DNA from: Sphyrna mokarran
Lineage: Eukaryota
Reading direction: 5' to 3'
Assembly: GCA_024679065.1 (NCBI GenBank)
Contig: JAGIQG010000040.1
Location: 6,262,001-6,326,000, forward strand
Length of the DNA: 64,000 bases
Part shown: piece after piece, positions 1,072-23,272 of the stretch
How the letters are laid out: every line of letters begins with the position of its first letter
Position numbering within the stretch: the stretch's first letter is position 1
Position numbers and translations under genes: made by a program
Notes under the pieces: generated by a model
Told to the model about the DNA's origin: nothing
Database searches by the model: none
The model's input: the letters and a program-made list of their open reading frames with translations, nothing else

Positions 1072-1603
1072 TGTTTTTGTACGAGGCTCTGGTTCCTTTC
1101 GCAATGTAATTCACCGCGCTGTCCGATAGCTCACAGGTGGTGAAATTTCCCTCATTTTTCGAAGTGCTCATAGATGCAAAAAAAAACCGATTCCCGTGCC
1201 TTCTGCTCTGCAATCATCTCTGTAGTTAGGGATGGAAGTCAAGAATTTGGCGGCTTTATCCCGGTACGGCGATGTAGCTGTGAAGAAAATGCACTGTGTG
1301 TGGTCGATTAGCTGAAGTCAATGGATATCGATTCTCTTCATCGCTATAAGTGGACCCTGGAAGACAGAAACTGCACCAATCACATCTAAAAACATAGAAG
1401 TACAAACTTAACGTTTTATCATCACTTTGTTGGGAAAAAATGTGATCAGGGTAACTAATTACATTACAAATAGAGAAAAAACAATTAAAAGGGAAGATTT
1501 TTATCTCAGTATCTCGAGCAATGCTGTGGATTTTGCAATTTTGGAATTTACCAGTTAAGGAAGTTGCAGCTATGATGAATGTATAAAAACTAACAGAAAG
1601 CAT
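1072..1603 (-). pseudogene. TCR V pseudogene (family IV); leader 1603-1552, V exon from 1356
   Basis: Leader MLSVSFYTFIIAATSLT|GTAAAT, acceptor TTCCAG|, frameshifted remnants DKAAKFL, ASMSTSKNEGNFT, ELSDSAVNY; nonamer ACAAAAACA at 1080-1072. Confidence 0.75.
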
Positions 1604-2171
1604 TCTCGCAGAGCTGGTGCTGGATCTGAACTCAGTGAGTTAAAACTGTTTTAGTTCAGAAAATGCTGAGTAATACCCGGCCTCACTGGCGATTGGTTCA
1701 TTCCAGACAGAGCCAGCAGGAGACACCCAATCAGCTGACGGCTTCTTTGTCCTACATTTCATCCAATCAGCTCACAGTGTCTTTGTTCTCCAATGCATGG
1801 AGGAGCAGGAGCCATTTGAATCTGTTCTCAGAACAATGAACTGGACTCGAAGAAGCTACACGACCAAATGAAGGTCTCGCTCTCTTTGACGAAGTGAGGG
1901 CATGAAAACAAATGTTGGTCATTTTCAGGAATTAATCTTAGAGATAGAACGCAGATGGATTTTGGGTTAACGTTGTGATAATAGTGGCAGAGTTTTCTAT
2001 TCCACGATTTGCTCCAAACAGCTATAAAAATGGAATTTATATTGAATTTATGTACCATGGAAAAATAGCATTCGGGCTAACTCTTCGTTATACTATTGTT
2101 TGTTTTTATTAACAGTTCACAATCTAGGTCACAGATCTGATTCAGTGAGAGGAGGTGAGAGTCCCTGCGCA

Positions 2172-2210
2172 GGTTTTTGTACGGGCTGAATGTGCTTCTG
2201 TAACAGTGTG
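2172..2210 (-). other. 23-RSS of V2
   Basis: CACACTG + 23 nt + ACAAAAACC on the minus strand. Confidence 0.93.
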
Positions 2211-2647
2211 GGATCGAGCGCACAGTGATACACGGCAGAATCAGAGACACGGACCCCGGTGATAGTTAAAGGAACTGTTTTCTTGTCCTTGTCCAAATCG
2301 GCAGAAAACCGGTCAGCAAAATCTGGAGACCTTCCTTCGCCACTCGTGCCATATCTCTTCACTAAATATCTCGGAGCTTCCCCGGGACACTGGATGTACC
2401 AGAAGAGATATGGACTAGCACTTTTTGTTGTGTAATTACAATTCAATGTAACGTTCAATCCTTCCTGAACCGTAAATTCAGGCGGCTGGGAAACTGAATC
2501 TTGGCCATTGATTCCTGCAACAAAATATAGAACATGTGAGAGAAATCTATAAGCAAATATAACCCATGAAAGACGCACTGAGGATTTGAGGTCAGACTTA
2601 CCGGGCAGCGTGGCCATTATTATCAGTAAAACACACAGGGGACACAT
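2211..2647 (-). CDS. TCR alpha/delta V segment V2 (family I), intact; leader 2647-2602, V exon 2514-2211
   Basis: Leader MCPLCVLLIIMATLP, GTAAGT donor, TTGCAG acceptor, V domain close to V1, RSS present. Confidence 0.92.
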
Positions 2648-2699
2648 GATTCCAGACAGGAGAGTAAGCAGCGACAGTGTTTAAAATATGTTGCTTCTT

Positions 2700-2810
2700 C
2701 TAGTCTTATATCACAGAGTGAACTCATATCAAAGGCAGCTTCAATTATTAGGAAACATGGGCGTTCCTCACTGCTGCGATTGGCTCATCTTCCTGAGCTG
2801 ACGTCAGCTG
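2700..2810 (-). promoter_or_regulatory. V2 promoter with perfect CRE
   Basis: TGACGTCA 2799-2806, CCAAT (ATTGG on + strand at 2779-2783), TATAA-like at ~2706-2710. Confidence 0.7.
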
Positions 2811-2811
2811 C

Positions 2812-3128
2812 GAATCATAAAATCCCTACAGTGCAAAAGGAGACCATTCGTCCCATCAAGTTTGCACTGGCCGCAATCCCACCTAGGCCCCCCTCCCGCA
2901 AGTCCGTGTATTTATCTTGCGTATCTCCTGACACTAGAGTTAATTTAACATAGCCAATCAACTTAACATGCACATCTTTGGACTGTGGGAGGAAAAGGAG
3001 CACCCGAAGGAGATCCACGTAGACACAGGGAGAACATGCAAACTTCATCCAGAAAGTGACCCGAAGCCGTAACTGAACCCGGGTCCCTGACACTGTGAGA
3101 CAGCAGTGCTATCCACTGTGGCACCATG
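2812..3128 (-). mobile_element. Full-length HE1/V-SINE-type SINE
   Basis: tRNA-like head (CACAGTGGATAGCACTGCTGTCTCACAG..GGGACCCGGGTTC), V-domain-like core, CR1-type tail. Confidence 0.85.
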
Positions 3129-20407: not shown

Positions 20408-21250
20408 GGCGGAGTTTGACAATCAATAGTTCCGTGTCAAGAAAACACGTGGGGTTGAATTTCAGAGAAAATGTACAGATTATGAACCTAACAATGCAGC
20501 CGCACCTGAACTGCATTCCCTCCCTAAGGTCAATGACTGTCACTGTTGGGAAATTTGACCTTTGGCTACAGATTATTCCTGAATCAAATGGAGTTATTTC
20601 CTGACGAGATGATATTTCGTCATCTTTCTGTATCAGACGTCTATCTGTCAAGGGACACCTGTTAAAAATGATCTAATATCACAGGAACTTTCAGAGTTGT
20701 CACATTTAAAGTTCCTGAGATAGAAATAATGACTGAGGGAAATCAGTACTTTCCCAGTATAAGAATAACCCTGCATCTCAATGTGGATTTGGGTGACTTC
20801 TTATCCCCGATGTATTTTAAACGGTAACAACAGATTGTGTTGATGCAATGGATACACTTATACAATATCCGCGGAATAAATGAATGTAAATTACTAATTT
20901 CACGTTTGATTTCAGATAGAGAAAGAATTATCTAAAAAAGACGGGGACATTGAGTTTGAATTAAAGCGAGTTAAACCGAGAAAGAGACAGTATAACTGCT
21001 AATTTATAGTGAGAGAGAGTGAGGAAGACACACAGAGCCTGGGATCAAATGTGATTGGAGAGTCGTCTCTGATCAGTGATTAGTTCACAGCTGACTTCAT
21101 CTAAAGGAAACCAGCCAATCGTAGTACGGAGAAAAGCCTCCAATTTCCCAATAATTGAAACTGCCTCTGAGCTGAGTTCATTCTGTGAGATAAACTAGAA
21201 AAAGCAACATATTTTAAACAGTGTCGCTGCTTACTGTTCAAACAGGAATC

Positions 21251-21697
21251 ATGAGTTCCCTGTGTGTTTTACTGGTAATAATGGCCATACTGCCCGGTGA
21301 GTCTGAGCTCAAATCCTCAGTGCCTGTTTTACGGGATATATTCACTCGCAGATTTTTCAAACGTTCTATGTGTTGTTACAGGAACCAGTGGGCAAGATTC
21401 AGTTTCCCAGGGGCCGCCTGAATTAACGGCTCAGGAAGGACAGACGGTAACATTGAACTGTAATTACACAACAAAATATAGTTTTCCAAAATATAGTTTT
21501 CTGTTATGGTACATCCAACATCCCGGGGAGGCTCCGAAATATTTACTGAAGATTCATAGCACGGGGGATGGAGAAGAGTCTCCAGATTTCCCATATCGGA
21601 TCTCTGCTGATTTGAACCTGGACAGGAAAGTAGTTCCTTTAACGATCACTGGGGTCCGTGTCTCTGATTCTGCCGTGTATCAGTGTGTGCTGATCCC
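21251..21697 (+). CDS. TCR alpha/delta V segment V8 (family I), open; leader 21251-21296, V exon 21382-21697
   Basis: MSSLCVLLVIMAILP|GTSGQDSVSQ..LNCNY..LLWYIQHPGEAPKYLL..SDSAVYQCVLI. Confidence 0.88.
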
Positions 21698-21736
21698 CAC
21701 ACTGTTACAGAGGCACAGTTAGTCCGTTCAAAAACC
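21698..21736 (+). other. 23-RSS of V8 (variant nonamer)
   Basis: CACACTG + 23 nt + TCAAAAACC. Confidence 0.88.
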
Positions 21737-22119
21737 AGCAAAGGCATTCTCACTTCCTCTCACTGTGTCAGATCTGTGATGCAGGTTGTGAACTGTTAAT
21801 ATAAACAAAGCAATCTTACAAAGAGCTAGTTTTACTTGCCAGAATGATCTATTTCTGCAGTGCTGAACATGTGCCTTTCTATGTAAAATAGTTGTTTCTG
21901 TGGCTTACGAGCAACTCTCTAAATGAAATACTCTGGAGTTGTTATCACAACATTAAATAATACCCATCAGTCTCCCATCTCAAAGATTAAATCCGTGAAA
22001 TCAACAACATTTGGCTAAATACCTTCTGTGTCATAACGATGTTGGATATTCAATCGTTTAGTTTTTTGAAACCGTTTGATAGATTTGTGAATGTTCAGGG
22101 TAAATAAGACACTTGGGAA

Positions 22120-22970
22120 CATTAGAACATGAGAACTTGGAGCAGGGAACAGGCCATCTGGTCCCTCGACCCTGCTCCACCATTCAATAAGACCACGGCT
22201 GATCCTTTCGTGGACTCAGCTCCACTTACTCGCCTAATCATAACCGTTAATTCCTTTACCGTCCAAACTTTATCTATCTTTGCCTTAAAAAAACATTCAA
22301 TGAAGTACCCTCAACTGCTTCACTGGGCAGTGAATTCCACAGATTCACAATCCTTTGTAAAGAAGTTCCTCCTTAACTCAGTCCTAAATCTGCTTCCCCT
22401 TATTTTGAGCTATGCCCCCTAATTCTAGTTTCACCTGCCGAAGGAAACAACGTCCTTGTTTCTATCTTACTTATTCCCTTCATAATCTTATGGATTTCTA
22501 TAAGAGCTCCCCTCATTCTTCTTAATTCCAATGAGTGTAGCTCAGTCTTTGCTCCTCAACCAACCCTCTTAACCCCGGAATCGACCTAGTGAATCTTCTC
22601 TGCACCTCCCCCACTGCCAATACATCCTTTCTTAAACAACGAAACCAAATCTCCAGGTGTGGCTTCACCAGCACACTATACAACTGCAACATAACCTCGC
22701 TGTTTTTAAACTCTATCCCTCTAGCAATGAAGGACACAACTTCATTTGTCTTCTTAATTGTCTGCTGACGTGCAAACCAACTTTCTGAGATGCTTGTGCC
22801 AAGATATCCCTGGTCCCTCTGATCAGCAGCATGCTGCAAATTTTTACTAATTAAATAATAGTCAATTTTGCTGTTATTCCTACCAAAATGGACGACTTCA
22901 TATTTACCAACATTGCACCCCATTTGTCAGACTCTCGCCCCCTCACTTAGACTATCTATATCCCTTTACA
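22120..22970 (-). mobile_element. CR1-type LINE 3' fragment
   Basis: VVHFGRNN..LQLYSVLVKPHLE..VQRRFTR; tail at ~22120. Confidence 0.85.
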
Positions 22971-23094
22971 TATATGAAGGTAATACGAGAAATTTGATGT
23001 GACGTAGATCAGTTGTGAATTTATTCAATGGCGGAACAGGCCCTTTTGAAGGAGCAAATGGTTCGCTGCGTCTCCTATTCCTCTTTTCTGAGGT

Positions 23095-23272
23095 GCTTCT
23101 GTCCAGTTCATCGTTCTGAACACAGATTCAAATGATTATTTTTCTTCACGTTTGACGTCATGGATTGGAGAACAAAGACACTCTGAGATGATTGGATGAA
23201 ATGTGGACCTCTGAGCTGATTGTGTCACCTGCTGACTCTAACAGAAATGAACCAATCGCTAGTGAGGCCGAC
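23095..23272 (+). promoter_or_regulatory. Orphan family IV V promoter
   Basis: Reverse-complement homologue of 1677-1858; perfect CRE TGACGTCA 23153-23160, several ATTGG/CCAAT boxes; no leader follows. Confidence 0.7.

What the first reader, a model, noticed from the sequence alone, without database searches (positions are those of the whole stretch)
1072..23272. Repeated multi-V cassette in which the CTCF-bearing V is always dead and its partner intact
Seen: the unit [CTCF site - family III V] - [family I V] - [family IV V] occurs at 3855-1072 (-), 16348-18465 (+, no family IV seen) and 19672-23272 (+), with homologous spacers (17086-17830 vs 20408-21090). All three family III members are pseudogenes with different lesions, yet the core TGTCCACnGGAGGGCGCTC is retained. 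All three family I partners are open and lack an obvious site of their own. Inference: the dead Vs may persist as chromatin anchors for their neighbours.
Basis: partly seen in the sequence, partly recalled or inferred. Interest (0 to 1): 0.7.

Follow-up and report, generated by a model that had tools for sequence, protein, structure and literature searches.

The report
CTCF motifs outlasting shark V genes

Summary
The cassettes, the 19-bp motif, three dead family III Vs and three open family I partners are real. 'Always dead' fails: 9 of 35 promoter-bearing family III copies found elsewhere in the genome are intact (leader, exon, RSS), and the same III-I unit occurs with a live III. The motif sits about 200 bp upstream of the family III ATG and resembles V-promoter CTCF sites of mouse TCR alpha/delta. 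Most III-I units do have a dead III (14 of 18) beside an open I (17 of 18). Among dead copies the motif evolves about 3 times slower than its flanks (p=2e-5), but those branches include time alive; the strict after-death test is not significant (4 changes against 7.4 expected, p=0.14), and core bases are hit in three dead lineages. Related species suggest two window lesions are young. Verdict: birth-and-death duplication of an old III-I-IV unit with a promoter CTCF motif (0.6); dead promoters kept as borrowed anchors remains open (0.3). The scan noted CTCF motifs at shark TCR Vs before, in another genome (e1-9023326).

The parts
1072..1870 (-). Family IV V relic (promoter plus heavily decayed exon); its weak CTCF-like site at 1710-1728 (+, score 14.3) is not conserved across copies
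2172..2647 (-). Family I V (I_b), leader + exon 2 open, 23-RSS 2210-2172
3388..3460 (.). SINE-like repeat fragment standing where exon 2 and RSS of III_a were (repeat label inferred from its second copy at 57187-57260)
   Evidence: sequence read directly
3453..3825 (-). III_a remnant: promoter, damaged leader, intron, first ~20 bp of exon 2
3826..3844 (-). CTCF-like motif of III_a (score 17.4 of 28.3 max)
4604..4647 (.). Assembly gap (44 N); end of the 52,484-bp block that is duplicated at 100% identity
15502..15520 (+). Second CTCF-like motif 857 bp upstream of the III_b motif (score 17.2), shared with three other III_b-type units
16359..16377 (+). CTCF-like motif of III_b (score 16.7), 204 bp upstream of the ATG
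16563..17085 (+). III_b pseudogene: intact leader and splice sites, TAG 16859, TAA 16985, 23-RSS 17047-17085; about 95% identical to intact paralogs
17989..18465 (+). Family I V (I_c), open, 23-RSS
19683..19701 (+). CTCF-like motif of III_c (score 19.8)
19881..20407 (+). III_c pseudogene: donor lost, 43-bp duplication, three 1-nt deletions, Cys23 lost, nonamer decayed
21251..21736 (+). Family I V (I_d), open, 9-bp in-frame duplication, 23-RSS with one nonamer mismatch
23101..23272 (+). Family IV promoter fragment only, cut by a LINE-like piece at 23279

Best explanation
The window holds three copies of an old three-gene unit (family III V, family I V, family IV relic) in a shark TCR alpha/delta-type V array, and the family III promoter carries a motif predicted to bind CTCF about 200 bp upstream of its start codon in both intact and broken copies, likely carried over from working ancestors as the unit was duplicated. 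Shown: the unit recurs at least 18 times on the contig in both orientations; family III died separately at least 8 times by different lesions and is intact in 9 copies; the motif is the most conserved part of the promoter. Inferred: the motif binds CTCF and, as at mouse V promoters, helps bring the local V genes to the recombination centre; dead III copies persist mainly because they lie inside the stretch that is duplicated with family I; a site in a dead promoter may well still be bound and could still help the family I gene 1.2-2.8 kb downstream, but selection for that after the death of III is not shown.
For: Nine intact family III genes with ATG leader, GT/AG intron, open exon and 23-RSS. 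III-I units with a live III at 3359663, 5223834, 6207030, and one with live III and broken I at 4102087. III_b is 95% identical to an intact paralog over 2 kb, so keeping 19 bp is expected. In runs X2 and X5 (other organisms) contigs >=85% like III_a run on into exon 2 at window 3453 instead of the repeat, and an X2 contig that shares the upstream repeat of III_c reads a GT donor where the window has lost it: both lesions look young, though those contigs could be paralogs. Strict after-lesion contrasts: 4 motif changes against 7.35 expected, p=0.14. Core bases are hit in dead copies 5447428 (score 10.4), 3615114 (13.6) and the f lineage (12.5). Five promoter-less dead family III exons examined have no trace of the motif (7-8 mismatches, 5 of 5). 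Motif strand follows V strand (13 + / 12 - in the array). [quoted passage not shown]
Against: On trees of the promoter block the motif runs at 0.36 against 1.12 for flanks among 20 dead copies (LRT p=1.6e-5) and 0.40 against 1.12 among 13 exon-less copies (p=0.002), but 0.65 against 1.07 among 7 live copies (p=0.24). If 30-40% of those branches were neutral, that is slower than expected unless the motif was almost frozen during life (p=0.016-0.055 at a live ratio of 0.3; p=0.27-0.68 at 0). Eleven motif differences in dead lineages are milder than random (mean -0.8 against -3.0 bits, p=0.013) and the core CpG is kept in 11 of 11 dead lineages while exon CpGs are kept in 26 of 43 cases. Two deletions (a and h2 lineages) removed exon 2 and spared the motif; none seen removed the motif beside an open partner.
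Confidence: 0.6

Rival explanations
1. Borrowed anchor: family I genes of the main clade depend on an upstream CTCF site supplied by the family III promoter, so selection keeps the site after III dies; the coding part is dispensable, the promoter is not.
For: III dead in 14 of 18 units while I is open in 17 of 18. Slow motif rate on dead-only and exon-less trees; mild changes and retained core CpG. Open main-clade family I genes that lack a III promoter (the 4 I_a-type copies) have another CTCF-like element 1.2 kb upstream, scores 17.0-21.1. The highest-scoring III motifs (19.8-20.3) are in dead copies; live ones score 11.4-15.2.
Against: Strict test p=0.14; motif damaged in 2 of 8 dead lineages whose partner is still open; motif also kept in orphans with no family I gene downstream (4928040, 5497684, ten copies near IgH clusters); large intact families (fam3, fam4, fam5, fam8) have no site >=14 within 1.5 kb upstream (0 of 16, 15, 8, 9), so a nearby site is no general need; only about three independent origins of the family I/site pairing.
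Confidence: 0.3
2. The motif is a promoter element for another factor, conserved for transcription of family III (or germline transcription), and only resembles a CTCF site.
For: It departs from the recalled CTCF matrix at the strong A (position 9) in most copies and scores only 11-20 of 28 bits; the 10-15 bp just downstream are nearly as conserved (window identity 0.86-0.90); no binding data.
Against: Match over the whole 19 positions, including CCAC and GGGCGC; one dead clade changed towards the CTCF consensus; reversed-sequence control gives 0 sites >=16 against 84; V-promoter CTCF sites are the mouse pattern.
Confidence: 0.07
3. The dead state or the repetition is largely an assembly artefact.
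For: 52,484-bp block at 100% identity including window 1-4603, N gap at 4604; one copy (10845271) is rich in homopolymer indels.
Against: III_c lesions are shared by 3 copies that differ by 1.3%; the III_a junction is shared by copies 4-5% apart; run X1 reads III_c and III_a with 0-4 other letters per contig. The two stops of III_b were not checked against reads.
Confidence: 0.03

Closest known systems
V-promoter CTCF sites of the mouse Tcra/Tcrd locus (PMC5859386, passages read; Shih et al. 2012 not held, recalled)
   Same: Site just upstream of a TCR alpha/delta-type V promoter; many sites across the V array; both orientations present.
   Different: Motif only, no binding data; at this short distance confined to family III (11 of 12 auto-called copies) and some family II, absent from most shark families surveyed; survives in broken and exon-less copies.
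RSS-associated CTCF sites of mouse proximal Igh VH genes (PMC6746451 and PMC7930373, passages read)
   Same: A CTCF site tied to a V family and inherited with it through duplication; more conserved than its flanks.
   Different: Those lie about 18 bp downstream of the RSS, share one orientation, and are typically missing at non-functional VH genes; here the site is upstream, follows V strand and is mostly still present at pseudogenes.
Most 5' V-beta promoter plus nearby CTCF element as a loop-extrusion start in mouse Tcrb (bioRxiv 10.1101/2024.10.13.618029, abstract and outline only)
   Same: A V promoter with an adjacent CTCF element acting as a chromatin-folding unit, the mechanism the anchor reading would need.
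   Different: There the promoter is active and tested by deletion; here the promoters are of dead genes and untested.
Birth-and-death evolution of antigen-receptor V arrays (general knowledge, recalled); elasmobranch TCR alpha/delta linked to IgH miniclusters (PMC12227049, passages read)
   Same: Tandem duplication units with mixed live and dead Vs; TCR-type V pieces between IgH clusters.
   Different: The unusually lopsided death of III beside I, and motif retention, are not described in the passages read.

Membership tests
TCR alpha/delta V gene segment | Split leader, V-type exon with Cys-Trp-Cys, 23-bp-spacer RSS | tested here: met
   9 intact family III and 4 window family I genes
TCR alpha/delta V gene segment | Closer to TCR alpha V than to other V domains | tested here: inconclusive
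   Best single-domain PDB matches of intact family III are TCR alpha chains and the one long hit is a fish TRAV/DV protein; no tree built; alpha versus delta use not resolved
TCR alpha/delta V gene segment | Linked to D/J/C of TCR alpha/delta | tested here: inconclusive
   TCR constant exon and J cluster not located; IgH miniclusters are on the same contig, as published for elasmobranchs
CTCF-binding element at a V promoter | Match to the CTCF core motif above chance | tested here: met
   Scores 11.4-20.3 with a recalled matrix; 84 sites >=16 in 1.056 Mb against 0 in the reversed sequence
CTCF-binding element at a V promoter | Fixed position upstream of the promoter | tested here: met
   199-204 bp upstream of the ATG in 11 of 11 copies translated
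CTCF-binding element at a V promoter | More conserved than flanking DNA | tested here: met
   Identity 0.90 against 0.69 among 12 dead lineages, 0.88 against 0.77 among 4 live
CTCF-binding element at a V promoter | Bound by CTCF/cohesin in thymocytes and forms loops | not testable with these tools
   No chromatin data
Convergently oriented loop anchors (Igh/Tcrb type) | One orientation across the V array | tested here: not met
   Family III motifs 13 + / 12 -; all sites >=14: 65 + / 57 -
Exapted pseudogene promoter (anchor kept after gene death) | Bearer gene always or nearly always dead | tested here: not met
   9 of 35 intact; 4 of 18 III-I units have a live III
Exapted pseudogene promoter (anchor kept after gene death) | Motif slower than neutral after the inactivating lesion | tested here: inconclusive
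   4 against 7.35, p=0.14; confounded tree test significant
Exapted pseudogene promoter (anchor kept after gene death) | Neighbour's rearrangement depends on the site | not testable with these tools
   No repertoire or editing data; no RNA holder listed

The most novel reading that the evidence does not exclude
In sharks, family III V genes repeatedly lose their coding function while selection keeps their promoter CTCF site as a loop anchor for the family I V downstream (and, in orphan copies, as a boundary beside IgH miniclusters): V pseudogenes kept as chromatin hardware, the reverse of mouse proximal Igh where pseudogenes lack the site.
Probability: 0.3. Interest if true: 0.65.

Novelty: new member of a known kind. 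Interest (0 to 1): 0.36.

Why it matters
If the motif is bound, V-promoter CTCF sites of the mouse TCR alpha/delta type would extend to cartilaginous fish, suggesting that CTCF-guided folding of antigen-receptor loci is as old as jawed vertebrates; four literature searches (listings only) showed no paper on CTCF sites at shark TCR V genes. If the borrowed-anchor reading held, it would give a concrete, testable reason why V pseudogenes persist. The locus offers a natural series: the same unit with live III, dead III with intact motif, and dead III with damaged motif.

Tried and rejected
Locating J/C to test convergent orientation: C1-set search returned mostly Ig constant exons, PF09291 found nothing, a 12-RSS pattern gave scattered single hits on C994 and no J cluster; two 'longer' protein searches returned no full-length shark TCR chain. 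Family IV as the true always-dead bearer of a site: its CTCF-like match ranges from -2.3 to 21.1 over 12 copies, so it is not conserved; rejected. Locus-wide enrichment: 12.6 against 3.0 sites per 100 kb at score >=14 (966 kb of V array against 200 kb of background, p=2e-5), but after collapsing duplicates (44 contexts against 6) p=0.22, so the excess is mostly copy number. Exon dN/dS as a clock of death: dead-dead ratios 0.36-0.93 against live-live 0.22-0.42, too noisy for a firm dead fraction. Expression: no RNA holder listed. The automatic classifier called the three III_c copies open in a wrong frame; they were corrected by hand. Copy 10845271 (indel-rich) was left out of the rate tests, and the two III_b-type pseudogenes were left out of the strict test because they died separately. 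An upstream TGCAG-type CTCF module is visible in the III_a lineage only; its consensus is recalled and it was not tested. Shih 2012, Jain 2018 and Ott 2021 were not held; no supplements were read, and those of PMC12227049 could bear on locus layout.
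Full report
Setting. The window is G000:C994:6262001-6326000. It is the high end of a V array that runs over about C994:3.3-6.3 Mb. An intact relative of family III matches TCR alpha V domains best among single-domain PDB entries. IgH V-D-D-J-C miniclusters lie on the same contig, the layout published for elasmobranchs (PMC12227049, passages). I fetched 1.056 Mb in 36 blocks, chosen around V hits and so not a random sample, and found 241 V-like segments; 145 below 7 Mb were auto-called open with an RSS, 74 on + and 71 on -.

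Observation. The motif occurs exactly three times in the window. The cassettes and spacers are homologous at 67-72%. III_a keeps promoter, damaged leader, intron and about 20 bp of exon 2, followed by a repeat; III_b has two stops; III_c has many lesions. The three partners splice to open V domains. The second family IV is a promoter fragment only, and family IV is a decayed relic wherever examined. Window 1-4603 belongs to a 52,484-bp block that is 100% identical to C994:5232990-5285473 and ends at the N gap, so that cassette should be counted once.

Is family III always dead? No. Searches with the promoter and the exon gave 35 promoter-bearing copies that I analysed (a further copy on C742 was not fetched): 9 intact, 8 broken with an exon, 18 without an exon. 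The 9 translate to complete leader-V proteins with 23-RSS, the motif 199-204 bp upstream of the ATG; they fall in 4 sub-lineages. Eighteen copies have a same-strand family I gene within 4.5 kb: III is dead in 14 and live in 4; the partner is open in 17 (partners outside the window judged on exon 2 and RSS only). The III-I-III-I run of the window recurs at 5223834 and 6207030 with a live first III. Five promoter-less dead family III exons examined carry no trace of the motif.

Is it a CTCF site? With a recalled CTCF matrix (maximum 28.3) the window copies score 17.4, 16.7 and 19.8. The fetched blocks hold 84 sites >=16 against 0 in reversed sequence. Density is 4-8 times a 200-kb background, but the excess is not significant once duplicates are collapsed. 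Sites within 600 bp upstream of exon 2 are typical of family III and rare elsewhere. Orientation follows the V strand and is mixed on the contig. This matches what is reported for mouse TCR alpha/delta (PMC5859386, passages). Binding is untested.

Is the motif kept after death? For: in a 116-column promoter block, mean identity among 12 dead lineages is 0.90 in the motif and 0.69 in the flanks; partition rates are 0.36 against 1.12 for 20 dead copies (p=1.6e-5) and 0.40 against 1.12 for 13 exon-less copies (p=0.002), and 0.65 against 1.07 for 7 live copies (p=0.24). Eleven differences from the commonest motif in dead lineages cost 0.8 bits on average against 3.0 at random (p=0.013); the core CpG is kept in 11 of 11 dead lineages, the CpG at the tolerant position in 6 of 11, exon CpGs in 26 of 43. 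Against: these trees include the time the ancestors were alive. Restricting to copies that share a lesion gives 0.39 substitutions/site, 7.35 expected motif changes and 4 seen (p=0.14). How surprising the tree result is depends on two poorly known numbers (p from below 0.001 to 0.97 over the grid tried). Core bases are hit in three dead lineages, two of them beside open partners. III_b is about 95% identical to an intact paralog and carries no information. Contigs of two other organisms that resemble III_a continue into exon 2 where the window has the repeat, and a contig of one other organism that shares the repeat upstream of III_c has a donor site; none of its 27 listed differences (of 30) falls in the motif. 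These suggest young lesions, with the caveat that short contigs may be paralogs.

The partner. Main-clade family I genes nearly all sit 1.2-2.8 kb behind a family III promoter; the four I_a-type copies that do not have a different CTCF-like element 1.2 kb upstream, related to one found upstream of the other family I clade. That fits a need for an upstream site but rests on about three events, and four other large families have no such site.

Mechanism. Shown: an old III-I-IV unit multiplied by duplication and inversion; repeated, independent loss of III; a conserved promoter motif. Inferred: CTCF binding and a role in bringing V genes to the recombination centre, by analogy with mouse (PMC5859386, PMC7930373, PMC12310595, PMC7515734 passages; bioRxiv 10.1101/2024.10.13.618029 abstract). 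Most likely the dead copies ride along with duplications of family I and keep a motif fixed during life (0.6). A borrowed anchor under continued selection is the main rival (0.3). In mouse proximal Igh, non-functional VH genes typically lack their site (PMC6746451; PMC7930373), so confirmed retention here would be a real contrast.

Novelty. A new member of a known kind (V-associated CTCF element), apparently not described for sharks in the library searched (listings only). An earlier scan note on another genome reports CTCF motifs at shark TCR Vs, there RSS-adjacent and co-oriented (e1-9023326; not checked here). PMC5931798 and PMC4914699 were read in passages and did not bear on the verdict. 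Interest 0.36.

Noticed in passing
window 1-4603 (C994:6214120-6266603 vs 5232990-5285473): 52,484 bp identical at 100.000%, ending at the N gap; likely the same contig placed twice. Flanking blocks at the same ~981-kb offset are 96-97% identical.
   Followed up: partly
window 7057-7570 (-) and 10102-10600 (-): Two family II Vs in a 2.7-kb tandem duplicate; the first has a 1-nt frameshift near its 3' end, the second is open. CTCF-like sites at 7817 (-, 17.1) and 8522/11650 (+, 19.7); the RSS matched with a 22-bp spacer.
   Followed up: partly
window 335-808 (+): Fourth open family I V, outside the cassettes, with its own strong CTCF-like site (21.1) about 740 bp before the window start.
   Followed up: yes
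window 23544-26780: About 3.2 kb of degenerate (TAACCC)n, an interstitial telomere-like array right at the end of the V array, preceded by a LINE-like fragment.
   Followed up: no
C994:9080401, 9377779, 10216964, 10264776 (L026, L025, L024, L023): V-less family III promoter fragments with the motif; three checked lie about 11 kb upstream of an IgH V and point away from it.
   Followed up: partly
C994:10.14-12.17 Mb and small contigs (e.g. L028-L030): A multiplied dead family III exon without its promoter among the IgH clusters, about a dozen copies.
   Followed up: partly
window 14765-14840 (+): tRNA-Lys(CTT) gene inside the V array.
   Followed up: no
window 35950-57145: Tandem ~9.9-kb segmental duplication at 97.7% identity in repeat-rich DNA.
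   Followed up: no
window 13750-14055 (+): Short fragment followed by an RSS-like match at 14015; possibly another decayed segment.
   Followed up: no
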